Origin: Kayfunavirus BDX03P1
Sequence record: OZ035818.1
Direction: 5' to 3' (one strand)
Length of the DNA: 39,754 nt
The number at the start of each line of letters is the position of its first letter. Position 1 is the first letter of the stretch. Shown piece by piece: positions 1-24,998 of this stretch. The notes beneath the pieces are model-generated. The model had not been told where the DNA came from, did no database searches, and worked only from the letters and a program-made list of their open reading frames with translations. The position numbers and the translations under genes are program-made.

Positions 1-29
1 TACAAAACGATTAAAGGAGGTGGTAAAAC

Positions 30-293
30 ATGACGCAGATGGACTTAGAGAAGTTCCTCTTAATGCTAGATACTGAACGTGCTCGACTCATGCTGCAAGA
101 CCTGCGGGATGACACTAAGCGTTCACCTCAGCTTTACAACGCCATTGAGAAGCTACTGGCTCGTCACAACTTCGTGCTAAGCAAGGTGTCTGTCGACGAG
201 AAGACGCTCGCTGATATGGAGGCCCTGAACGCAGAGTACGATAAGGTGCTCTCCGCTACGGAAGATAATGACACTGGATATGGAGTACAGTAA
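30..293 (+). CDS. terminase small subunit (T7 gp18-like)
   Basis: 87-aa ORF with SPQLYNAIEKLL segment and overall resemblance to T7 gp18 as I recall it; followed by Rz-like gene and terminase large subunit in T7 order. Confidence 0.8.
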   Translation: MTQMDLEKFLLMLDTERARLMLQDLRDDTKRSPQLYNAIEKLLARHNFVLSKVSVDEKTLADMEALNAEYDKVLSATEDNDTGYGVQ

Positions 294-305
294 ATCTCTT
301 AAGTG

Positions 306-350
306 TTAGACTCAAGGTCATTACTATATGTAGTGGCCTTTATGGTTAAC
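306..350 (+). promoter_or_regulatory. conserved hairpin element, probable RNase III processing site (T7 R18.5 position)
   Basis: ttagactcaaggtcat...gtggcctttatggtta; near-identical element recurs at 9305-9350 and 16888-16931 with conserved outer arms AAGG/CCTT and variable inner stem-loop. Confidence 0.45.
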
Positions 351-403
351 ACTAACTAGTGGAGGAGACTCTACGTGAAATCTGATAAACCGGGAGGGCA
401 ACT

Positions 404-847
404 ATGCTCGAATTTTTAAAGAGAGCGGCTCCGTGGTTACTCGCAGCAGTGATGTTTGCTGGTGGCTACCACACCGCTAACAATAAGTGGGAGGCTAAGG
501 TCAATGCAGAATACACCTCGAATCTTAAGGCATCGGAGGATACAAGACTTGCTGTCCAAGCTGAAGTCAACAAGGTGTCCAAACGGTTTCAGGACGAGAT
601 GTCCTCGCTGGAAGGCAGCACTGACAGGATTATTGCTGACCTTAAGTCTGACAATAAGCGGTTGCGCATCCGAGTCAAACCTACGAGTGGAACCACGCAA
701 AGTGACGGTCGATGCGTCATTGATGGTTACGCCGAACTTGACGAACGAGATGCTAAACGTCTTATCGCCATCGGACTGAAAGGAGATAAGTGGATTACGG
801 CCCTTCAGGACACTGTGAGAGCCTTGCAGCAAGATAAGGAGCAATAA
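404..847 (+). CDS. i-spanin, Rz-like (T7 gp18.5-like)
   Basis: 147-aa ORF, N-terminal hydrophobic segment PWLLAAVMFAGGY then charged/coiled region; position after gene 18. Confidence 0.8.
   Translation: MLEFLKRAAPWLLAAVMFAGGYHTANNKWEAKVNAEYTSNLKASEDTRLAVQAEVNKVSKRFQDEMSSLEGSTDRIIADLKSDNKRLRIRVKPTSGTTQSDGRCVIDGYAELDERDAKRLIAIGLKGDKWITALQDTVRALQQDKEQ
504..779 (+). CDS. o-spanin, Rz1-like lipoprotein (T7 gp18.7-like), embedded in +1 frame of the Rz gene
   Basis: ORF 456-779 in alternate frame; lipobox LTISGC followed by ASES, PRWKxAL motif resembling T7 gp18.7; start at internal ATG 504 chosen over 456 (uncertain). Confidence 0.6.
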   Translation: MQNTPRILRHRRIQDLLSKLKSTRCPNGFRTRCPRWKAALTGLLLTLSLTISGCASESNLRVEPRKVTVDASLMVTPNLTNEMLNVLSPSD

Positions 848-1230
848 TGCTAACAGACTTTGCGTATTCAGACGGTAAGTTGTTCAGGAAGGGACGTGAA
901 GTCGGCTCAATGGACAACCACGGGTATCTGAGGACTACGGTCAACTATCGTAAGTATCTCGTACACCGTCTAATCTACAAGCTGCACAACCCTGAGTTCG
1001 ACCTTGAATCAGACCTTGTGATTGACCACATCAACCGCAACCGGACAGACAACAGGATTGAGAACCTTCGGGCTGTGACCAAGGCTGAAAACAACAGGAA
1101 CAGGGACCTGCCAAGAGGCGTGTCTTATTGTAAACAGACCGGGAAGTGGAAGGCTATACAACCTCGCTGGCTCGGTCGATTTGAGACTGAACAGGAGGCC
1201 ATTGATGCAGTTAACGCCGCAAGAGCGTAA
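847..1230 (+). CDS. HNH homing endonuclease with AP2-like DNA-binding domain
   Basis: 127 aa; HNH core [29 protein letters not shown]; C-terminal AP2-like segment [32 protein letters not shown]; start ATG overlaps Rz stop. Confidence 0.8.
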
Positions 1231-2968
1231 TGACGCCGTGACAAAGAGGATGAAAGAGGACTTCGTGTTCTTCTTATTCGTCCTCTGGAAAGCACTTAGC
1301 CTACCAATACCAACCAGATGCCAGATAGATATGGCCCGTAAGCTATCGGCTGGGGACAACAGGCGCTTCATCTTACAGGCGTTCCGTGGTATCGGGAAGT
1401 CCTTCATTACGTGTGCCTTCGTTGTCTGGAAGCTATGGAACAACCCAGACTTGAAGTTCATGATTGTGTCGGCCTCAAAGGAACGAGCCGATGCTAACTC
1501 CATCTTCATCAAGCGAATCATCGACCTCATGCCTCAGCTTCAGGAACTCAAACCTAAGCAGGGACAGCGAGATGCGGTTATCAGCTTCGACGTTGGACCA
1601 GCCAAGCCAGACCACTCACCTTCGGTTAAGTCAGTTGGTATCACTGGTCAGTTGACTGGTAGTCGTGCTGACATCCTGATTGCCGACGACGTGGAGGTTC
1701 CGAACAACTCAGCGACTCAGGCTGCACGAGACCGTCTATCAGAGCTTGTGAAAGAGTTCGACGCTATCCTGAAGCCTGGAGGTACAATCATCTATCTGGG
1801 TACTCCTCAGAACGAGATGACCTTGTATCGTGAGCTGGAAGGCCGTGGATACACCACTACTATCTGGCCTGCTCGCTATCCACGTGATAGGAAGGACTGG
1901 CAGTCTTACGGCGACCGTCTGGCACCGATGCTTCAGGCAGAGCTGGAAGAGGACCCTGAGTCCTTCTACTGGCGTCCGACCGATGAAGTTCGCTTCGACG
2001 ATACTGACCTGAAGGAACGTGAGCTGTCCTATGGTAAAGCTGGCTTCGCTCTACAGTTCATGCTCAACCCGAACCTGAGTGATGCCGAGAAGTACCCTCT
2101 GAAGCTCCGTGACCTTATCGTAGCAGACTTGGACCCAGCGTCCAGCCCAATGGTCTACCAATGGTTGCCTAACCCTCACAACAAGCGTGAGGACGTTCCT
2201 AACGTTGGACTCATGGGCGACTCGTACCACACGTATCAGACTGTAGGTTCTGCCTTCAGTTCGTACACCCAGAAGATTCTGGTCATTGACCCTAGTGGTC
2301 GTGGTAAGGATGAAACTGGCTATGCGGTACTATACCAGCTCAACGGCTACATCTTCGCTATGGAAGTTGGCGGTATGCGTGGTGGTTATGAAGACTCTAC
2401 TCTGGAAGCTCTGGCTAAGATTGGTCGTAAGTGGAAGGTCAACGAATACGTCATTGAGGGTAACTTCGGTGATGGTATGTACCTTGAGTTATTTAAGCCT
2501 GTAGCGGCCCGTATCCATCCTGCGGCTGTAACTGAAGTGAAGAGTAAGGGTCAGAAAGAACTCCGCATCTGTGACGTTCTGGAGCCTATCATGGGGTCTC
2601 ACAGACTTATCGTCAACGCTGCTGCTATCGTCCAAGATTACCAGTCGGCCTCTGATAAGGATGGTGTTCGTAACCCTATCTACTCTCTCTTCTACCAGAT
2701 GACACGTATCTCTCGTGAACGTGGGGCCTTGGCACACGATGACCGACTTGATGCGCTGGCTATCGGTGTACAGTTCTTCGTTGAGTCTATGGCTAAGGAT
2801 GCCAACAAAGGCGAACGTGAAGTCACTGAGGAGTGGCTGGAGGAACAGATGGAGAACCCACGGAAAGGCTTCGAGTCCATCCACACTGAGTTCTGGGACA
2901 ATGGGGTCCGGGTAACCCACGATACGGACGACGAGCTGGGGCTAGGGTCATACGTTACGTTCCACTAG
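1205..2968 (+). CDS. terminase large subunit (T7 gp19-like)
   Basis: Long ORF 1181-2968; strong resemblance to T7 gp19 ([21 protein letters not shown] Walker A region, [20 protein letters not shown]); start 1205 chosen by alignment of N-terminus, alternative ATG at 1181. Confidence 0.9.
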
Positions 2969-3062
2969 CTGAATGAATAACTATGGGTGAAAGCTGCATG
3001 AATACGCAGTTAGTAACCTATAGTTACTACCAGTCTAACCTACTGTTTTACAAGGAGTTTGG

Positions 3063-3085
3063 ACTTAACTATCACTATAGGGAAG
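3063..3085 (+). promoter_or_regulatory. phage RNAP promoter (phiOR-like, downstream of terminase)
   Basis: cttaactatcactatagggaaga matches the 12-copy consensus TAAACTATCACTATAGGRA. Confidence 0.6.
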
Positions 3086-3264
3086 ACCCCCGGTTACTTA
3101 TAGTATTACTGTAGTGAATATACATATGCAGACTTTATGCAAGACCTTAGGAGGCAGACTCCGAGTTCTTACCTAAGGCTTGCACCGATGGAAGGAGGTG
3201 ATATTAATCATAATCCCTCCAATACAGATAGTCACCGACCATAGATACAGGAGGTATGTAGCAT

Positions 3265-3423
3265 ATGGCAAAGACCAAAGCTGTACTTAAAGCTCTGGCG
3301 ACCAATCGAGCTACATACAGGTTTCTTGCTGCTGTTCTACTTGCTGCTGGCGTTACTGCTGGAAGTCAGTGGGTCGGGTGGGTCGAGACTCTCGTATGTT
3401 CTCTGGTGTCTGAGTGTCATTAA
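3265..3423 (+). CDS. small hydrophobic protein at gp19.5 position
   Basis: 52-codon ORF (below the ORF-track cutoff) with AGGAGG RBS 8 nt upstream; MAKTKAVLKALATNRATYRFLAAVLLAAGVTAG...; position equivalent to T7 gene 19.5. Confidence 0.4.
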   Translation: MAKTKAVLKALATNRATYRFLAAVLLAAGVTAGSQWVGWVETLVCSLVSECH

Positions 3424-3559
3424 CGCCGTAATGGTAACAATAAACGAAAGTAAGACCTAAGGTCAGTTCATAGCTGACGCTACTCTACTGACCTTAGCTA
3501 CTGTAGTCAAGGACTTTAGGTAACACCTTAAGAGAAGCTCACTTAGGGTCATCCTACTT

Positions 3560-3625
3560 ATTGGTCTATCCTAGTGTCGCCTGACCTACGGTCCTTGACC
3601 TACAGTGGCTGTGGCCTACAGTAGT
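3560..3625. repeat. short direct-repeat array (ACCTACRGT-type) flanking the terminal repeat
   Basis: gacctacggt / gacctacagt / gcctacagt tandem imperfect copies; analogous to T7 short-repeat arrays next to the terminal redundancy. Confidence 0.5.
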
Positions 3626-3660
3626 GACGATGAGTTTTGGACCAAAAGTTTGAGACCACA

Positions 3661-3850
3661 TCTCACAGTTCAAGAACCTCAAGTCTCCCCATAGGCCATC
3701 TTTCAGTCCAGACCAAAGGCCCTACCCCAGTCTATCATAAGGTTGGACCGATGGTCAAGACGTTAGGTCAACGATAGGTCTAGGCTATGGCTTAGGGAAG
3801 GACGATAGGTAGGGACTATGGGTCTTCTCTGAGTCTCTATCTGTATCAGA
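3661..3850. repeat. probable terminal redundancy (direct terminal repeat) / physical genome end, collapsed to one copy
   Basis: Begins tctcacagt as the T7 left end does (TCTCACAGTGTACGGACC); ends near ctctatctgtatcagacc resembling the T7 TR end; flanked by short-repeat arrays; right boundary approximate. Confidence 0.45.
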
Positions 3851-3950
3851 CCATAAGTAACAACCATCAGCCTACGCCTACAGTCTCACTAACCATAAGT
3901 CACAACCATAAGACACCAACGCCTACAGTCAGAGACCAACGGTTAATAGA
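3850..3950. repeat. short direct-repeat array (CCATAAGT and CGCCTACAGTC units)
   Basis: aaccataagt x3 and cgcctacagtc x2 in about 100 bp; analogous to T7 CCTAAAG repeats on the left-end side of the TR. Confidence 0.5.
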
Positions 3951-4054: not shown

Positions 4055-4090
4055 TTGACTATAGGTCTAGACTATGGCTTAATAGCTTCC
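4055..4090 (+). promoter_or_regulatory. sigma70 early promoter (A1-like)
   Basis: TTGACT - 17 bp - CTTAAT; surrounding sequence resembles the T7 A1 region (ttgact...ccggata...gtagacagcctgataagtc). Confidence 0.45.
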
Positions 4091-4194
4091 GTCAACACGA
4101 CACGGCAACAACCGGATAGTGAAGACGCCGGGTCATCCCGGTCAAGTAGACAGCCTGATAAGTCATACGAACAACAGGCAGATGACAAAAGCAG

Positions 4195-4232
4195 TTGACA
4201 AGAAGTACAAACTTAAAGTAGTATGTACCACG
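4195..4232 (+). promoter_or_regulatory. sigma70 early promoter (A2/A3-like)
   Basis: TTGACA - 18 bp - TAGTAT followed by GTACCAC as in T7 A3. Confidence 0.5.
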
Positions 4233-4342
4233 TAGCAAGATGGCGTAGGGATAGGAGCCGAGAAACCTGCCCGAGACCAGCCAAGGATAAGGCACTAGCC
4301 GTGAGTCGAATTCGGTCACTCACCGCATAAAAGAATAACAGG

Positions 4343-5589: not shown

Positions 5590-5679
5590 ATGAGTGTGGG
5601 ATATTGGGCATGCCTAGCGCCAGTTATCTGGATGATAGGTTATGGGATATACGACTGTATTAAACGGGGATCACTATGA
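5590..5679 (+). CDS. small hydrophobic peptide (29 aa), hypothetical
   Basis: RBS taggag upstream; MSVGYWACLAPVIWMIGYGIY...; stop overlaps ATG of next ORF. Confidence 0.25.
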   Translation: MSVGYWACLAPVIWMIGYGIYDCIKRGSL

Positions 5680-5876
5680 GTCTTGCACTATTGATAGCCA
5701 TAGGCTATGCACTTATCGCCTACGTGCTGGTGAGAGACATTAACAAGGCGCGTAAAGTCTACAAATTCAACTATGTACATCTGGGCCGCTGGACTGTACG
5801 TCAACCTAACGGACGATTCATGCGCAACTTAGCGAACGTCTGGGATATAGCAACACTTGGGAGCAAACTACAATGA
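5676..5876 (+). CDS. small membrane protein, hypothetical early protein
   Basis: 66 aa; N-terminal TM segment LALLIAIGYALIAYVLV; translationally coupled to neighbours. Confidence 0.45.
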   Translation: MSLALLIAIGYALIAYVLVRDINKARKVYKFNYVHLGRWTVRQPNGRFMRNLANVWDIATLGSKLQ

Positions 5877-6205
5877 ACAAGTCATACGGGATTAATCTGG
5901 TACACTCTATGGACGCAGACATGCAAATGTTAAGCCTACTGGCTACCGGGTATCGTCACGGAACGTCAAGTCACTCCGCACGTCAACAGCAGGAGAGGGA
6001 CCGGGTACTACAAGCAAGACTCCGGGCTGAGGGCCATAAGTCCGAACTGATGTGTCTGGCGTATGGTGGACGACCAATCACTGACGATGGTAAACTTCTG
6101 GTCTCAGGCTGGAAGGCGATAGACCAACGGTCATCCATCAAGCACACGACTCATGGTGACTTCAGTCATCTTCACGCTAACCCACTGATATGCAAGCGAT
6201 TCTGA
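5873..6205 (+). CDS. hypothetical early protein at the gp0.7 position (no kinase motifs seen)
   Basis: 110-aa ORF, ATGA overlap with upstream ORF; immediately precedes RNAP gene; no Gly-rich loop, HRD or DFG kinase signatures. Confidence 0.5.
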   Translation: MNKSYGINLVHSMDADMQMLSLLATGYRHGTSSHSARQQQERDRVLQARLRAEGHKSELMCLAYGGRPITDDGKLLVSGWKAIDQRSSIKHTTHGDFSHLHANPLICKRF

Positions 6206-6227
6206 CTTAACTATCACTATAGGACTC
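6205..6227 (+). promoter_or_regulatory. phage RNAP promoter immediately upstream of the RNAP gene
   Basis: cttaactatcactataggactc, consensus match; followed by conserved leader gactcaaggtc. Confidence 0.55.
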
Positions 6228-6297
6228 AAGGTCTAAGACTCCAAGTGAAAAGACCAAAGAGACTTTAAGTGAAAGACTAATAACAAGGACTTTAAGT

Positions 6298-8979
6298 ATG
6301 AGCGTCATCTCTATTGACAAACACGACTTCTCTGATGTGTCAAACGCCATTGAGCCGTTTAACCTGCTGGCCGACCACTACGGGCAAGACCTTGCAGTCA
6401 AACAGCTTCAGCTTGAGCATGAGGCATACACTGAAGGCGAGCGACGTTTCATCAAAAACCTTGAGCGCCAGACTGAGCGAGGGGAACTGGCAGACAATCA
6501 GGTCGCCAAGCCTCTGATGCAGACTCTGGTCCCTAAGATTGCGCAAGCCGTCAGGGAGTGGCATGAAGGTCCAGACGGGAAGCTGTCAACCTCTCGTCCT
6601 AGCGTAGCGTTCACCATGTTGAGCACTGAAGAGAAGGCCGTCAAGGCCCGCTCGCTGCGCATCTCTTGCGAGTCTGCTGCGGTCATCATACTGAAGGTCA
6701 TACTCTCCAAGCTGGTCAAGCCTGAAGGGATACCGATTACACCGATGGCCTCCGCGATAGGTCGCACACTTGAGGACGAAATCCGCTTCGGTCGCATCCG
6801 TGACAAGGAGAAGGAGCACTTCAAGAAGGCGATAGCTGAGAATCTGAACAAGCGAGCTGGGGCATCCTACAAGAAAGCCTATATGCAAGCTGTCGAGACC
6901 TCCATGCTGGAGCAAGGCCAACTGGAAGATGCGTGGGGGACTTGGAGTCCTACAGAGGCTGTCCACGTTGGCATCAAGATGCTTGAGATTGTCATCCAGT
7001 CAACACAACTGGTCGAGCTTAAGCGGTACGGTGCTGGCAATGCAGCGGCTGACGTCGAGATGGTCCACCTGTCAGACTTCTGGGTCAAGAAGATGGCACA
7101 ACGAGGATTCAGCCTTGCGGGTATCGCTCCAGTCTACCAGCCTTGCGTCGTTCCACCTAAGCCGTGGACTGGTGTCGTAGGAGGTGGGTACTGGGCCAAA
7201 GGACGCAGACCACTACCACTGATTCGCTTAGGGTCTAAGTCTGCGGTGGCACGTTATGAAGACGTGTACATGCCTGAAGTCTATGACGCTGTGAATATCA
7301 TCCAGAATACACCTTGGAAAGTTAACAAAAAGGTACTGGAAGTGGTGAACATGGTCGAGAAGCTAAACAACACGCCTATTGATGACATCCCTCAGATGGA
7401 GCCACTGAAGCCTGAAGACTATGCGGGTGAGACTGAAGAGGAACTCAAGGCATGGAAGAAGGCTGCTGCTGGTATCTACCGCCGAGAGAAGGCCCGGCAG
7501 TCACGTAGATTGTCACTGAGCTTTATCGTTAACCAAGCGAACAAGTTCTCTCAGTTCAAGGCCATATGGTTTCCGTACAATATGGACTGGCGCGGTCGTG
7601 TCTACGCTGTTCCGATGTTCAACCCTCAGGGTAACGACATGCAAAAGGGTCTCCTGACTCTGGCAGTCGGTAAGCCTATTGGTGCTGATGGTTTCAAATG
7701 GCTGAAGGTCCACGGTGCAAACTGTGCGGGTATTGATAAAGTAACCTTCGAGGAGCGCATCAAGTGGGTGGAAGATAACCACGACAACATCATGGCTACC
7801 GCTAAGGCACCGATGGACAGCATTGAGTGGTGGGGAAAGTTAGACTCTCCGTTCTGCTTCCTAGCGTTCTGCTTCGAGTATGCTGGCGTAATGCATCACG
7901 GATTGTCTTACTCCTGCTCGCTGCCGATAGCATTCGATGGGTCCTGCTCTGGGATTCAGCACTTTAGCGCAATGCTTCGTGATCACATCGGTGGACATGC
8001 AGTAAACCTGACGCCTTCCGGTAAGGTCCAAGACATCTACCGCATCGTGTCGGACCGCATTGAGGAGGAGCTTAAAGTCCTGCTGGTTAATGGCACGGAC
8101 AACGAGATGGTAACTCACGAGGACAAGAAAACTGGTGAGATTACCGAACGTCTCAAGCTGGGGACACGAGAGCTGGCCCGGCAGTGGCTGACTTACGGTA
8201 TGTCACGCAAGGTCACTAAGCGTTCGGTCATGACTCTGGCCTACGGGTCGAAAGAGTATGGCTTCGCAGACCAAGTTTACGAGGACATCGTTATGCCAGC
8301 GATTGACTCAGGGTCTGGCGCTATGTTCACCGAACCAAGCCAAGCGTCCCGCTTCATGGCTAAGATGATCTGGGAAGCTGTGAGCGTGACCGTAGTTGCT
8401 GCTGTTGACGCGATGAAGTGGCTTCAAGGTGCTGCCAAGCTGCTGGCTGCTGAAGTGAAAGACAAGAAGACTGGAGAAATCCTGAAGCCTTGCCTTCCGG
8501 TACACTGGGTCACACCTGATGGTTTCCCGGTCTGGCAGGAATACCGCAAGAAGGATACCACTCGTCTGAATCTGATGTTCTTAGGGTCATTCAACCTTCA
8601 ACCTACGGTCAACAAAGGTACGAAGAAAGAGCTGGACAAGCACAAGCAGGAGTCAGGCATTAGCCCGAACTTCGTCCACTCACAAGATGGTAGCCACCTA
8701 CGCAAGACTGTAGTCCACACTCACCGTAAGTATGGCGTGATGTCGTTCGCAGTGATTCACGATAGCTTCGGGACCATCCCGGCTGACGCTGAGTATCTGT
8801 TCCGGGGTGTCCGTGAGACGATGGTCGAGACCTACCGCGACAACGATGTGCTGCTTGACTTCTACGAGCAGTTTGAATACCAACTTCATGAGAGCCAGCG
8901 CGACAAGTTGCCTGAGCTTCCGAAGAAAGGTAAACTGAATATCGAGGACATCTTGTCTTCAGACTTTGCATTCGCTTAA
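6298..8979 (+). CDS. DNA-directed RNA polymerase, single-subunit (T7 gp1-like)
   Basis: 893 aa; near-colinear with T7 RNAP (e.g. WFPYNMDWRGRVYAV, FNPQGNDM, FDGSCSGIQHFSAMLRD, HDSFGT, C-terminal FAFA). Confidence 0.97.
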   Translation: MSVISIDKHDFSDVSNAIEPFNLLADHYGQDLAVKQLQLEHEAYTEGERRFIKNLERQTERGELADNQVAKPLMQTLVPKIAQAVREWHEGPDGKLSTSRPSVAFTMLSTEEKAVKARSLRISCESAAVIILKVILSKLVKPEGIPITPMASAIGRTLEDEIRFGRIRDKEKEHFKKAIAENLNKRAGASYKKAYMQAVETSMLEQGQLEDAWGTWSPTEAVHVGIKMLEIVIQSTQLVELKRYGAGNAAADVEMVHLSDFWVKKMAQRGFSLAGIAPVYQPCVVPPKPWTGVVGGGYWAKGRRPLPLIRLGSKSAVARYEDVYMPEVYDAVNIIQNTPWKVNKKVLEVVNMVEKLNNTPIDDIPQMEPLKPEDYAGETEEELKAWKKAAAGIYRREKARQSRRLSLSFIVNQANKFSQFKAIWFPYNMDWRGRVYAVPMFNPQGNDMQKGLLTLAVGKPIGADGFKWLKVHGANCAGIDKVTFEERIKWVEDNHDNIMATAKAPMDSIEWWGKLDSPFCFLAFCFEYAGVMHHGLSYSCSLPIAFDGSCSGIQHFSAMLRDHIGGHAVNLTPSGKVQDIYRIVSDRIEEELKVLLVNGTDNEMVTHEDKKTGEITERLKLGTRELARQWLTYGMSRKVTKRSVMTLAYGSKEYGFADQVYEDIVMPAIDSGSGAMFTEPSQASRFMAKMIWEAVSVTVVAAVDAMKWLQGAAKLLAAEVKDKKTGEILKPCLPVHWVTPDGFPVWQEYRKKDTTRLNLMFLGSFNLQPTVNKGTKKELDKHKQESGISPNFVHSQDGSHLRKTVVHTHRKYGVMSFAVIHDSFGTIPADAEYLFRGVRETMVETYRDNDVLLDFYEQFEYQLHESQRDKLPELPKKGKLNIEDILSSDFAFA

Positions 8980-9284: not shown

Positions 9285-9307
9285 CCTAAACTATCACTAT
9301 AGGATTA
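9285..9307 (+). promoter_or_regulatory. phage RNAP promoter (phi1.1-like)
   Basis: ctaaactatcactataggatta; followed by the conserved hairpin element. Confidence 0.65.
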
Positions 9308-10996: not shown

Positions 10997-11031
10997 CAAC
11001 CCAGTGGTCTTCGGACTGCTGGGTTTCTTTG
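10997..11031 (+). terminator. possible intrinsic terminator (TE-like, after ligase)
   Basis: acccag...ctgggt stem with ttcgg loop region followed by tttcttt. Confidence 0.4.
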
Positions 11032-11099: not shown

Positions 11100-11360
11100 A
11101 TGTCTAAGAACTTAATGTTCAACCGCTATTCCAGTACCTTCCACCTGTCCAACAACCCGTTCGCTTGCATTAAGCGCAACGAGAAGCTTGGCTACTTCGG
11201 GAAGGCCGTTAAGCTGTCACCTACAGTATTCGCTATGATTACTCCAGGAAAAGCTGAAGAGGCTCGCCAGAAGCGTGAGACCAATGTACCCGTGGTCTAC
11301 ACTAAGTGGCCCCGCGTTCGTCTGTTCGTTGAGTTTGTGAAGGAGATGATCAATGATTAA
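11100..11360 (+). CDS. hypothetical protein (gp1.6 position)
   Basis: 86-aa ORF with GGAGAC RBS after promoter. Confidence 0.5.
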   Translation: MSKNLMFNRYSSTFHLSNNPFACIKRNEKLGYFGKAVKLSPTVFAMITPGKAEEARQKRETNVPVVYTKWPRVRLFVEFVKEMIND

Positions 11361-14352: not shown

Positions 14353-14560
14353 ACTTATCGAATTTCTTGGTCGTCTGGTGGTGCGTGGTTATCGTCGTGC
14401 TGCGGTTATTGAACGAAAGGTAGCAGAGAAGACTGCTGACGGTGCGGCTGATGCTGCTGCTCTGGCTGACAAGCTGACCATCGCGTCACTGGAAGCTGGC
14501 ATGAAGGCACGTCAGGCTGACACCAAAGCTGACCAGTTGTCTCAGTTCTTCAAAGCCTAA
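14345..14560 (+). CDS. hypothetical protein (Ala-rich, predicted helical)
   Basis: 71 aa from ATG 14345 (in frame with ORF-track 14276-14560), ATGATTAA overlap with upstream stop. Confidence 0.4.
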   Translation: MIKLIEFLGRLVVRGYRRAAVIERKVAEKTADGAADAAALADKLTIASLEAGMKARQADTKADQLSQFFKA

Positions 14561-14578
14561 ACTATCACCTTAGGGATG
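14556..14578 (+). promoter_or_regulatory. phage RNAP promoter-like sequence, divergent (CACCTTAGGG)
   Basis: ctaaactatcaccttagggatg; two mismatches at -4/-3. Confidence 0.35.
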
Positions 14579-16708: not shown

Positions 16709-16873
16709 GTGTTAAAGAAACTTAAAGCCCGCTACCACAGGTTCATGTACAAATGGTGGAGCGATGAAGCAACCTGCCTGTCCAACATTCTGGGAGACCA
16801 GCGGTTCAACTCTGAGGCATGGAAGAAAGCTAACCGGAAGTTCATGTATCACTTCTTGCGTACAGACTACTAA
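16709..16873 (+). CDS. small hypothetical protein (GTG start)
   Basis: 54 codons from GTG with GGAGGA RBS; weak. Confidence 0.3.
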   Translation: MLKKLKARYHRFMYKWWSDEATCLSNILGDQRFNSEAWKKANRKFMYHFLRTDY

Positions 16874-16891
16874 GCTATCACTGTAGGATAG
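16869..16891 (+). promoter_or_regulatory. phage RNAP promoter (variant CACTGTAGG)
   Basis: ctaagctatcactgtaggatag. Confidence 0.55.
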
Positions 16892-16931
16892 ACTCAAGGT
16901 CATTCACTTCGAGTGGCCTTTATGATTAGAC
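16888..16931 (+). promoter_or_regulatory. conserved hairpin, probable RNase III site (R4.7 position)
   Basis: atagactcaaggtcattcacttcgagtggcctttatgattagac; inner stem CACT/AGTG differs from other copies while outer arms are conserved. Confidence 0.45.
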
Positions 16932-16944
16932 TATAGGAGACATT

Positions 16945-17346
16945 ATGATTGACTGTATTGAGTGGACCGGGTGCCGAGATAAGTTCGGCTATGGCATGCG
17001 TAGGGTCAATGGGAAAGTCCGTAGGCTACATCTCATAGCGTATGAGGAAGCTAATGGTCCAATACCAAAGGGACTGGTTGTCCGTCATAAGTGTGACAAC
17101 CCGTCATGTTATAACCCTGATCACCTAGAGCTTGGGACACGAGCTGATAACGTTAAGGACCTGGATGTCCGTGGACGTACAGCAAAGGGTGTAAAAGTGG
17201 GATGCGCCAAGTTGACACCTGAAATTGTAGCCGAGGCTAAGAGATTGTACGCTTCTGGTGAATGGACTCACCGCTCTCTGGGAGAGAAATACGGCGTAGG
17301 GCATAGGACAATAGCCCGAGCGATTGGAGGTGCTACATGGATTTAA
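16945..17346 (+). CDS. HNH homing endonuclease (HNH_3-type with C-terminal HTH)
   Basis: 133 aa; CxxC...HKCDNPSCYNPDHLELGTRADN; C-terminal helix-turn-helix-like segment; sits immediately before DNA polymerase. Confidence 0.85.
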   Translation: MIDCIEWTGCRDKFGYGMRRVNGKVRRLHLIAYEEANGPIPKGLVVRHKCDNPSCYNPDHLELGTRADNVKDLDVRGRTAKGVKVGCAKLTPEIVAEAKRLYASGEWTHRSLGEKYGVGHRTIARAIGGATWI

Positions 17347-24975: not shown

Positions 24976-24998
24976 ACTAAACTATCACTATAGGGAGA
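24976..24998 (+). promoter_or_regulatory. phage RNAP promoter (phi10-like, strongest consensus with GGGAGA start)
   Basis: ctaaactatcactatagggagacc; long leader with strong RBS aggaga before capsid ATG. Confidence 0.7.

What the first reader, a model, noticed from the sequence alone, without database searches (positions are those of the whole stretch)
6205..6297. Phage-RNAP promoter directly upstream of the RNAP gene itself
A full consensus copy (cttaactatcactatagga) lies in the 92-bp gap between the last early ORF and the RNAP start codon. In T7, gene 1 is transcribed only by host RNAP from A1-A3, with the first class II promoters downstream of gene 1. A promoter here would give positive autoregulation of the polymerase. 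It also shares the conserved leader gactcaaggt seen after promoters at 9285, 16869 and 24976.
Basis: partly seen in the sequence, partly recalled or inferred. Interest (0 to 1): 0.5.

Follow-up and report, generated by a model that had tools for sequence, protein, structure and literature searches.

The report
Phage promoter just before polymerase gene
A K1F-like relative of phage T7 carries one of its own polymerase's promoters directly in front of the polymerase gene; the feature is real and conserved, but public records of close relatives already annotate it, so it is ordinary for this genus.

Summary
CTTAACTATCACTATAGGA lies at 6206-6224 (+1 G at 6222), in the 92-bp gap between the stop of ORF 5873-6205 and the RNAP start codon at 6298. 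It is one of 11 same-strand copies of the phage promoter (0 expected by chance).

The window is a circularly permuted Kayfunavirus (K1F-like) genome. Its RNAP specificity loop is identical to K1F's.

The site is a genus trait. It sits 75-81 nt before gene 1 in all 17 Kayfunavirus contigs sampled and in K1F and EcoDS1. The segment occurs in 219 deposited phage genomes. The promoter stays 87% invariant where the adjacent leader is only 48% invariant.

It is not new. GenBank records of EcoDS1 and CR44b annotate this promoter. gh-1 and UNO-SLW1 annotate equivalents. In LUZ100 such a promoter was mapped experimentally and a positive feedback loop proposed.

The contrast with T7 is overstated, because T7 has φOL upstream of its whole early region. 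Kayfunavirus lacks φOL and has this promoter instead.

The "conserved leader" GACTCAAGGT is the 5' arm of T7-type RNase III sites. Here it is only a half-site.

Positive autoregulation is plausible but untested.

The parts
6205..6227 (+). K1F-type phage RNAP promoter, -17..+6 (ACTTAACTATCACTATA GGACTC); predicted start is G6222
   Evidence: Exact motif. PWM score within the range of the other 10 copies. Maps onto EcoDS1's annotated 'promoter phi' at 2244-2266. 20 of 23 columns are invariant across two Kayfunavirus clades.
6222..6297 (+). 76-nt A-rich 5' leader of the predicted phage-RNAP transcript of gene 1
   Evidence: GC 0.36 and A 0.44 for 6225-6297, against genome GC 0.505. No significant fold (z=+0.74). 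No covariation. Only 48% of +7..SD columns are invariant, with indels, across the clades.
6223..6233 (+). GACTCAAGGTC, the 5' arm motif of T7-type RNase III sites; here a half-site without the GTGGCCTT partner
   Evidence: The same string opens T7 R1.1 and the complete hairpins at window 314, 9313 and 16896. No complete motif lies in the 6206-6297 gap.
6285..6300 (+). Shine-Dalgarno AAGGA (6285-6289) and ATG (6298-6300) of gene 1. The 15 bases 6286-6300 (AGGACTTTAAGTATG) are identical to the stretch running through the start codon of T7 gene 1.1
   Evidence: 15-nt exact match. 17 of 19 columns of SD..ATG (6282-6300) are invariant.
6298..8979 (+). Gene 1, single-subunit RNA polymerase (893 aa), K1F specificity class
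   Evidence: PF00940 and PF14700. 99.7% identical to EcoDS1 gp1 and 98.9% to K1F gp1; specificity loop identical to both.
5873..6205 (+). Last early ORF (110 aa, phrog_7066, unknown function). Its stop codon abuts the promoter, with the final A of TGA at -17
   Evidence: Corresponds in position to gp0.38 of EcoDS1.
6177..6204 (+). Upstream flank shared with the phiOR-equivalent promoter (window 3035-3062)
   Evidence: Repeat family D3: 47 nt, 81% identical. 18-20 of 30 flank positions are identical in 8 of the 9 Kayfunavirus sequences that hold both promoters, and this is the top-scoring pair in each of them.
3063..3085 (+). phiOR-equivalent promoter near the right genome end; -17..-1 identical to the pre-gene-1 promoter
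4055..4233 (+). Context: two host-RNAP early promoters (about 4055-4091 and 4195-4233) that start the early transcription unit containing gene 1
   Evidence: EcoDS1's annotated host promoters mapped by BLAST. TTGACA-18-TAGTAT at 4195-4224.
10998..11027 (+). Context: early terminator TE for host RNAP, after the ligase gene (approximate coordinates)
   Evidence: EcoDS1's TE feature mapped at 95% identity.

Best explanation
This is a functional, class II-like promoter for the phage's own K1F-type RNA polymerase, and its position is fixed across the genus Kayfunavirus.

Shown: the site is a full-quality copy of the phage promoter, 76 nt upstream of gene 1, on the gene's strand, with no intervening terminator. 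The cognate polymerase is encoded immediately downstream. Gene 1 lies inside a T7-style early unit that runs from host promoters near 4055/4195 to TE near 11000. Kayfunavirus has no phiOL-type promoter at its left end, so this is the leftmost phage promoter to enter the cell.

Inferred: host RNAP makes the first gene 1 mRNA. The new phage RNAP then initiates at G6222 and transcribes gene 1 and the class II genes beyond it. This gives positive feedback on RNAP synthesis that can continue after Gp2/Gp0.7-type shutoff of host RNAP. As with T7 class II promoters (own knowledge), lysozyme gp3.5 binding to the RNAP would later damp it.

The promoter probably arose by duplication or conversion of a roughly 47-nt segment shared with phiOR.
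For: Motif statistics: 11 copies against 0 expected. Recognition region identical to phiOR's and within the score range of the other copies. RNAP specificity loop identical to K1F's, and K1F loop/promoter pairs are active in vivo (PMC3458549). Present 75-81 nt before gene 1 in 17 of 17 Kayfunavirus contigs plus the window and EcoDS1; K1F carries the identical promoter and leader. The segment is in 219 deposited genomes. Main clade against subclade, the promoter is 20-21 of 23 identical while the adjacent leader is 31-32 of 60 with indels. No terminator or stable structure in the leader. Independent curators annotated it as a promoter in EcoDS1 and CR44b. Cognate promoters directly before the RNAP gene also occur in phages with different promoter sequences: gh-1 phi1, UNO-SLW1 and LUZ100, where it was mapped by ONT-cappable-seq. 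The CR44b Gp2 homolog inhibits E. coli RNAP (PMC3541766). No phiOL-like site lies between the left end and 6200 (best PWM score 10.3 against at least 28.9 for real sites).
Against: I found no 5'-end mapping or in vitro transcription for any Kayfunavirus. The K1F genome paper could not be read. All carriers are close relatives (RNAP at least 93% identical), so conservation is weak evidence, and the coding block just upstream (6158-6196) is even more conserved. The initiating region GGACTC departs from the consensus at +4..+6, so strength is unknown. The four subclade contigs (L016, L017, L018, L022) carry A at -2. T7-, T3-, Berlin- and K11-like phages manage without such a site: none of the 58 sampled loci that gave a usable promoter model has one within 600 nt. 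The feedback is therefore not a necessity.
Confidence: 0.72

Rival explanations
1. The promoter's main role is that of the missing phiOL, not autoregulation. As the leftmost phage promoter it would serve DNA-level functions: handing genome internalisation over to the fast phage RNAP, and/or priming replication as a promoter-plus-AT-rich origin like T7 phi1.1A/B or phiOL. This does not exclude the main explanation.
For: Kayfunavirus lacks a phiOL-position promoter, whereas most of the T7/T3/Berlin/K11-like loci sampled have one 1.1-4 kb upstream of gene 1. The leader is the most A-rich of the 11 and ties for lowest GC (GC 0.34, A 0.46). The leader is a reciprocal best match of T7's phi1.1B-to-gene-1.1 segment, which is the AT-rich part of T7's primary origin by my own knowledge (score 38 against 14.4±2.6 in shuffles, 0 of 2000). 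Downstream of gene 1 the window has only one promoter followed by an RNase III hairpin, not T7's tandem pair plus AT-rich stretch.
Against: The similarity to the T7 origin segment is carried by the RBS-proximal 40 nt. Without the last 16-19 nt it is no longer the best match in the window. A GC of 0.34-0.40 is shared by most promoter leaders. No replication data exist, and gene entry in T7 works from phi1.1A/B just as well (own knowledge).
Confidence: 0.15
2. The site is a selectively neutral by-product of a recombination or duplication event that copied a phiOR-containing segment in front of gene 1. It persists through linkage and short divergence times and makes little contribution to expression.
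For: The 47-nt similarity to the phiOR region extends 30 nt upstream of the promoter, with an identical -17..-1. All carriers are closely related. The early region upstream is mosaic between relatives.
Against: The promoter is retained at 20-21 of 23 positions in the subclade whose leader has diverged to about 52% identity with indels. The only core change (-2 T to A) gives CACTAAAGG, a form that is the majority among T7-like promoters in some sampled genomes. A perfect-recognition promoter in front of a gene is expected to fire whether or not it is 'needed'. Parallel arrangements exist in gh-1, UNO-SLW1 and LUZ100.
Confidence: 0.07
3. The conserved sequence acts mainly at the RNA level in host-RNAP read-through transcripts. 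It would be the equivalent of the R1 RNase III processing site that precedes gene 1 in T7 and phiYeO3-12, formed by pairing of the promoter sequence with complementary leader sequence.
For: T7 and phiYeO3-12 have an R1 hairpin at this position. The leader begins with the RNase III 5'-arm motif GACTCAAGGTC. In the divergent subclade the promoter core TATCACTAAAG has a perfect 11-bp inverted repeat CTTTAGTGATA in the leader. Overlapping promoter/RNase III sites are annotated in phiYeO3-12 (R6.5, R13).
Against: In this window no inverted repeat of at least 8 nt exists. Folds are not better than shuffles (z from -0.19 to -1.3). There is no covariation. The canonical 3' arm GTGGCCTT is absent. Rfam gives no hit.
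Confidence: 0.06

Closest known systems
Annotated 'promoter phi' upstream of gene 1 in Escherichia phage EcoDS1 (EU734172.1, 2244-2266), and the 'predicted promoter' in Citrobacter phage CR44b (HG818823.1, 1814-1836)
   Same: The same element. The promoter plus its 15-bp flanks is 96% identical to EcoDS1's (51 of 53). It has the same distance to gene 1 and the same polymerase (99.7% identical), in the same genus.
   Different: Nothing of substance. The early genes upstream differ between these phages.
LUZ100 phi1, a phage-specific promoter directly upstream of the RNAP gene (PMC10134795)
   Same: A cognate promoter immediately before the phage's own RNAP gene. A positive feedback loop was proposed, started by host-RNAP read-through.
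   Different: LUZ100's site was mapped experimentally. That phage has temperate features, and the promoter is thought to be under a MarR-like repressor. Its RNAP and promoter sequence are only distantly related. The window shows no repressor or lysogeny module.
gh-1 phi1 (NC_004665, 939-961) and the UNO-SLW1 promoter at 3814-3839
   Same: Studiervirinae phages with a cognate promoter about 90-100 nt before the RNAP gene, each annotated by its depositors.
   Different: Different promoter specificity (AAACCCTCAC-type). In gh-1 the RNAP is the first gene, so phi1 is also phiOL-like. UNO-SLW1 has both a left-end promoter and the pre-RNAP one, and its pre-RNAP copy has a non-consensus initiating region.
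T7 phiOL (position 405) and its T3/phiYeO3-12/K11-type equivalents
   Same: The leftmost phage promoter, rightward, upstream of gene 1 with no phage-RNAP terminator in between.
   Different: phiOL precedes the host promoters and all the early genes, 1.1-4 kb before gene 1. The Kayfunavirus promoter follows the early genes and sits 76 nt before gene 1. Its flank resembles phiOR, and no phiOL/phiOR flank similarity exists in the other genera.
Synthetic T7 autogene (T7 RNAP gene under a T7 promoter)
   Same: The same circuit logic: a polymerase transcribing its own gene (PMC6395690, listed; Dubendorff and Studier 1991 from my own knowledge).
   Different: The autogene is an engineered construct. 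Here the arrangement is natural and embedded in a host-promoter-driven early operon.

Membership tests
T7-group single-subunit RNAP promoter, K1F specificity class | A 23-bp element (-17..+6) that matches the genome's own multi-copy consensus, on the transcribed strand | tested here: met
   11 copies against 0 expected. Leave-one-out score 28.5 for -17..-1, within the range 24.7-30.2.
T7-group single-subunit RNAP promoter, K1F specificity class | A cognate RNAP with the matching specificity loop is encoded in the same genome | tested here: met
   The specificity loop and the AT-rich recognition loop are identical to K1F and EcoDS1 and distinct from T7 and T3. The K1F loop with a K1F -12..-7 promoter is active (PMC3458549).
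T7-group single-subunit RNAP promoter, K1F specificity class | Transcription initiates at the +1 G, in vitro or in vivo | not testable with these tools
   No Kayfunavirus transcript-mapping data were found in the held literature.
T7 class III (strong, late) versus class II promoter | Consensus initiating sequence GGGAGA at +1..+6 | tested here: not met
   +1..+6 is GGACTC. The phi10 equivalent at 24977 has GGGAGA. The site is therefore class II-like by sequence. Actual strength was not tested.
T7-type RNase III processing site (R1 equivalent) | A stable hairpin with an AAGGTCAY...RTGGCCTT stem, as in T7 R1, R1.1 and window 314/9313/16896 | tested here: not met
   Only the 5' arm is present. 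No complete motif lies in the 6206-6297 gap. The fold has z=+0.74. No covariation.
T7-type replication origin (phage promoter plus AT-rich region) | A promoter followed by a markedly AT-rich segment that is homologous to known origin segments | tested here: inconclusive
   Leader GC is 0.34-0.36 against 0.505 for the genome. It is a reciprocal best match to T7's phi1.1B leader, but the RBS-proximal part drives the match. Origin activity itself cannot be tested here.
Autoregulated phage RNAP gene (LUZ100 phi1 type; autogene logic) | A cognate promoter upstream of the RNAP gene on the same strand, with no terminator in between | tested here: met
   A 76-nt leader with no terminator-like site and no stable hairpin.
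Autoregulated phage RNAP gene (LUZ100 phi1 type; autogene logic) | RNAP-dependent increase of gene 1 transcript or protein | not testable with these tools
   This needs infection experiments with a promoter mutant.

The most novel reading that the evidence does not exclude
In Kayfunavirus the ancestral left-end promoter phiOL was lost. A copy of the phiOR segment, placed directly before gene 1, took over as the leftmost phage promoter. This would create a natural 'autogene' switch that frees polymerase supply from host RNAP once Gp2 shuts the host enzyme off. It might also double as a replication origin or entry hand-off point. In host-made read-through RNA the promoter sequence might pair with the leader, so that host-made and phage-made gene 1 mRNAs differ in 5' structure and translation.
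Probability: 0.12. Interest if true: 0.45.

Novelty: already known. Interest (0 to 1): 0.2.

Why it matters
If it is active, the promoter makes K1F-like phages natural examples of a self-amplifying polymerase circuit. That bears on how tightly T7-group phages need to limit their RNAP. It also matters to engineers who use K1F RNAP/promoter pairs or K1F-derived therapeutic phages, because deleting or moving early genes would leave gene 1 under its own promoter. The comparison also refines the textbook picture: the T7 group splits into lineages whose leftmost phage promoter sits before the early genes (phiOL) and lineages where it sits directly before gene 1. Because the element is already annotated and has experimentally studied analogues, the remaining value lies in testing its function, not in discovering it.

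Tried and rejected
(1) I tried to read the K1F genome paper (Scholl and Merril 2005) and Chen and Schneider 2005. Neither is held, so I cannot say whether they discuss this promoter.

(2) The two K1F records I read carry no promoter features.

(3) An Rfam scan of the whole window gave no family at gathering threshold.

(4) RNA structure in the leader: single-sequence folds were not better than shuffles, and the consensus fold showed no covariation. I rejected a complete RNase III site.

(5) 'Relocated phiOL' idea: if phiOL and phiOR shared flanks in other genera, the flank similarity seen here would mark the site as a phiOL homologue. No such similarity exists elsewhere, so I rejected this in favour of a duplication or conversion with phiOR that is specific to Kayfunavirus.

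(6) Homology of the leader to the T7 primary origin is significant overall but is driven by the ribosome-binding region, so I kept it only as a weak rival.

(7) The T7 RNAP pause signal ATCTGTT occurs twice on the + strand, about the chance expectation, and not in the leader.

(8) My anchor-based promoter finder failed for UNO-SLW1 because its promoter lacks CACT. I used the record's own annotation instead.

(9) Two further loci (L037, L047) were too short for a promoter model.

Full report
WHAT IS THERE

The window is a complete, circularly permuted genome of a Kayfunavirus (K1F-like; Studiervirinae). Region 5600-8000 is 94-96% identical to many Kayfunavirus records. The RNAP is 99.7% identical to EcoDS1 gp1 and 98.9% to K1F gp1. 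Mapping K1F, LM33_P1 and EcoDS1 onto the window puts the genome's left end at about 3661, with one copy of the 178-bp terminal repeat at 3661-3838. Window 1-3660 is therefore the right end of the genome, including a 595-aa ORF (1181-2968) at the position of the large terminase gene 19 and a phiOR-equivalent promoter at 3064.

The motif CTTAACTATCACTATAGGA lies exactly at 6206-6224. With up to 3 mismatches the motif occurs 11 times, all on the + strand, against none expected.

IS IT A REAL PROMOTER FOR THIS PHAGE'S POLYMERASE?

The site's -17..-1 is identical to that of the phiOR-equivalent. It scores 28.5 bits in a leave-one-out model, within the 24.7-30.2 range of the other ten copies. Its +1..+6 (GGACTC) departs from the consensus at +4..+6, whereas the phi10 equivalent has GGGAGA. 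By sequence it therefore resembles T7 class II promoters more than class III.

The encoded RNAP has Pfam RNA_pol and RPOL_N domains. Its specificity loop is identical to that of K1F and distinct from T7 and T3. K1F loop/promoter pairs have been shown to work when grafted into T7 RNAP (PMC3458549).

Nothing resembling a terminator lies in the leader, and the 76-nt leader does not fold better than shuffled sequence (z=+0.74). A Shine-Dalgarno AAGGA sits 8 nt before the ATG.

Gene 1 lies inside a T7-style early unit. EcoDS1's curated host promoters map to about 4055 and 4195, and its TE terminator maps to about 11000, after the ligase gene. Host RNAP can therefore make the first RNAP mRNA.

COMPARATIVE EVIDENCE

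K1F itself has the identical promoter and leader before gene 1. I retrieved 80 viral contigs encoding RNAP relatives. For each I derived its own promoter model de novo and located the copies relative to the RNAP start.

All 17 Kayfunavirus contigs, plus the window and EcoDS1, have a promoter whose +1 lies 75-81 nt before the RNAP ATG. None has a promoter at the phiOL position. In the window the best score between the left end and 6200 is 10.3, against at least 28.9 for real sites.

Of the 63 loci with T7-, T3-, Berlin- or K11-type RNAPs, 58 gave a usable promoter model: two were too short (L037, L047), and three (L048, L086, L087) were used only in the flank comparison. None of the 58 has a cognate promoter within 600 nt of the RNAP start. 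Where an upstream promoter is seen at all, the nearest is the phiOL equivalent, typically 2-3.4 kb upstream. The closest exceptions are at 617 nt (L046) and 1.1-1.7 kb. SP6 likewise has none directly upstream.

The segment 6160-6330 is present in 219 deposited phage genomes.

Within the genus, a divergent subclade (RNAP 93-95% identical: L016, L017, L018, L022) keeps 20-21 of 23 promoter positions while the adjacent leader is only 31-32 of 60 identical, with indels. Over nine sequences the promoter is 87% invariant and the leader 48%. This fits selection on the promoter. The short divergence and an even more conserved coding block just upstream (6158-6196, 37 of 39 invariant) temper that argument.

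WHAT IS ALREADY KNOWN

The EcoDS1 GenBank record annotates 'promoter phi' at 2244-2266, immediately before gene 1 (2336). It also annotates three host promoters, TE and phiOR, but no phiOL. CR44b's record annotates a 'predicted promoter' at 1814-1836, before gene 1 at 1906. A 2026 paper on the Kayfunavirus Sparklingdew lists the repeat CTWAACTATCACTATAGG at the 3' end of SPD_007, the gene before the RNAP gene SPD_008 (PMC13298934).

Outside the genus, gh-1's record has 'phi1; putative gh-1 RNAP promoter' at 939-961, before its RNAP gene at 1058. UNO-SLW1 has a PHIRE-predicted promoter at 3814-3839, before its RNAP gene at 3925; this copy matches that phage's own AAACCCTCACC-type consensus throughout the recognition region.

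The element is therefore already known, both as this very sequence and as a kind.

First, T7 does have a T7 promoter upstream of gene 1. phiOL at 405 is listed in the T7 record, along with minor E. coli promoters B and C; C lies at 3113, just before gene 1. T7 has only one terminator for its RNAP, after gene 10 (PMC5592923). phiYeO3-12 and the K11-like phages have the same layout. The true contrast is one of position: before the early genes in those phages, directly before gene 1 in Kayfunavirus.

Second, the 'conserved leader' GACTCAAGGT is the 5' arm of T7-type RNase III sites. T7 R1.1 reads ACTCAAGGTCATTCGCAAGAGTGGCCTTTATGATTGACC. The window has complete hairpins of this type at 314, 9313 and 16896, and these fold well. 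After the phi10 equivalent, the same 10-mer instead takes part in a different 5' stem-loop. In the pre-gene-1 leader only the half-site is present, the 3' arm is missing, and no conserved structure is detectable. T7 and phiYeO3-12 have a complete R1 site at this position, so the half-site may be a remnant of R1. That last step is inference.

ORIGIN OF THE SITE

The 30 nt upstream of the promoter resemble the 30 nt upstream of the phiOR equivalent. In 8 of the 9 Kayfunavirus sequences that hold both promoters, 18-20 of 30 positions are identical, and this is the top-scoring pair among all promoter pairs. The typical best pair elsewhere scores 11-14. L017 is the exception. No such relation links phiOL and phiOR in the other genera. 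This points to a roughly 47-nt duplication or conversion within the Kayfunavirus lineage, not to a displaced phiOL.

The 3' 40 nt of the leader, including the RBS, is a reciprocal best match of the segment preceding T7 gene 1.1 (score 38 against 14.4±2.6 in shuffles). The match is carried by the ribosome-binding region, so it says little about origin function.

MECHANISM AND CONFIDENCE

I commit to a functional class II-like promoter that lets the phage RNAP transcribe its own gene, and the genes beyond it, once host-made RNAP appears. This gives positive feedback that can outlast host-RNAP shutoff. A Kayfunavirus Gp2 homolog does inhibit E. coli RNAP (PMC3541766).

Sequence quality, orientation, the cognate polymerase, the absence of a terminator and conservation are shown. 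Initiation at 6222, promoter strength, the feedback effect and damping by lysozyme are inferred.

The rivals are: a phiOL-substitute role at the DNA level (entry hand-off or origin), a neutral recombination relic, and an RNA-processing element. None is excluded, but each has weaker support. The first is compatible with the main reading.

VERDICT

The feature is real, conserved and correctly located. It is ordinary for its genus and already annotated in public records, and an experimentally characterised analogue exists elsewhere. Interest is low to moderate. What remains open is a functional test, which these tools cannot provide.

Noticed in passing
L049, L050, L051, L078 (K11-like Klebsiella phage contigs), about 57 nt downstream of their own phiOL: These phages use AATTAGGTAGCACTATAGG-type promoters, yet they carry AGATAACTATCACTATAGGTCTA, a K1F-type promoter core, next to their phiOL. 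This may be a relic of exchange between promoter-specificity classes.
   Followed up: no
window 14557-14576: A degenerate twelfth promoter copy (CTAAACTATCACCTTAGGGA, with CACCTTAGG instead of CACTATAGG). The equivalent site is annotated 'promoter phi' in EcoDS1 (11107-11129), and K1F also has it.
   Followed up: partly
window 6158-6196: A 39-nt block at the 3' end of ORF 5873-6205 is 37 of 39 invariant across both Kayfunavirus clades, third codon positions included. That is more conserved than the rest of the ORF (70%) and than the promoter. Its 3' part overlaps the flank shared with phiOR. The reason is unknown.
   Followed up: partly
L016 2407-2417 / 2461-2471 (also L017, L018, L022): In the divergent subclade the promoter core TATCACTAAAG has a perfect 11-bp inverted repeat, CTTTAGTGATA, in the leader. 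The promoter's -2 T-to-A change completes the pairing. This repeat is absent from the window (no inverted repeat of at least 8 nt).
   Followed up: partly
window 6286-6300 versus T7 5995-6009: The RBS-to-start stretch of gene 1 (AGGACTTTAAGTATG) is identical to the one at T7 gene 1.1. The 40 nt before the start are reciprocal best matches between the two genomes.
   Followed up: yes
window 3459-3495: A 37-nt segment with complementary 9-nt ends (AAGGTCAGT ... ACTGACCTT) lies between the phiOR equivalent and the terminal repeat. It turned up in the RNase III motif search on both strands. Its function was not examined.
   Followed up: no
window 10495, 22685, 24673 (minus strand): GACTCAAGGT also occurs three times on the non-coding strand, inside genes. 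Together with the five plus-strand copies, that is 8 against 0.09 expected.
   Followed up: no
window 16870-16950: A promoter (ACTAAGCTATCACTGTAGGATAG, the lowest-scoring of the 11) is followed at once by a complete RNase III-type hairpin. EcoDS1 annotates no promoter between 11107 and 16991, so this module may not be shared by all relatives.
   Followed up: no
L046 (T3-like contig), 617 nt upstream of its RNAP start: This is the only non-Kayfunavirus locus in the sample with a cognate promoter (CAATCACCCTCACTAAAGGGAAT) closer than 1 kb to gene 1.
   Followed up: no
window 1-3660 / 3661-3838: The window is circularly permuted relative to deposited genomes. The true left end is near 3661, and a single copy of the 178-bp direct terminal repeat lies at 3661-3838.
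   Followed up: yes
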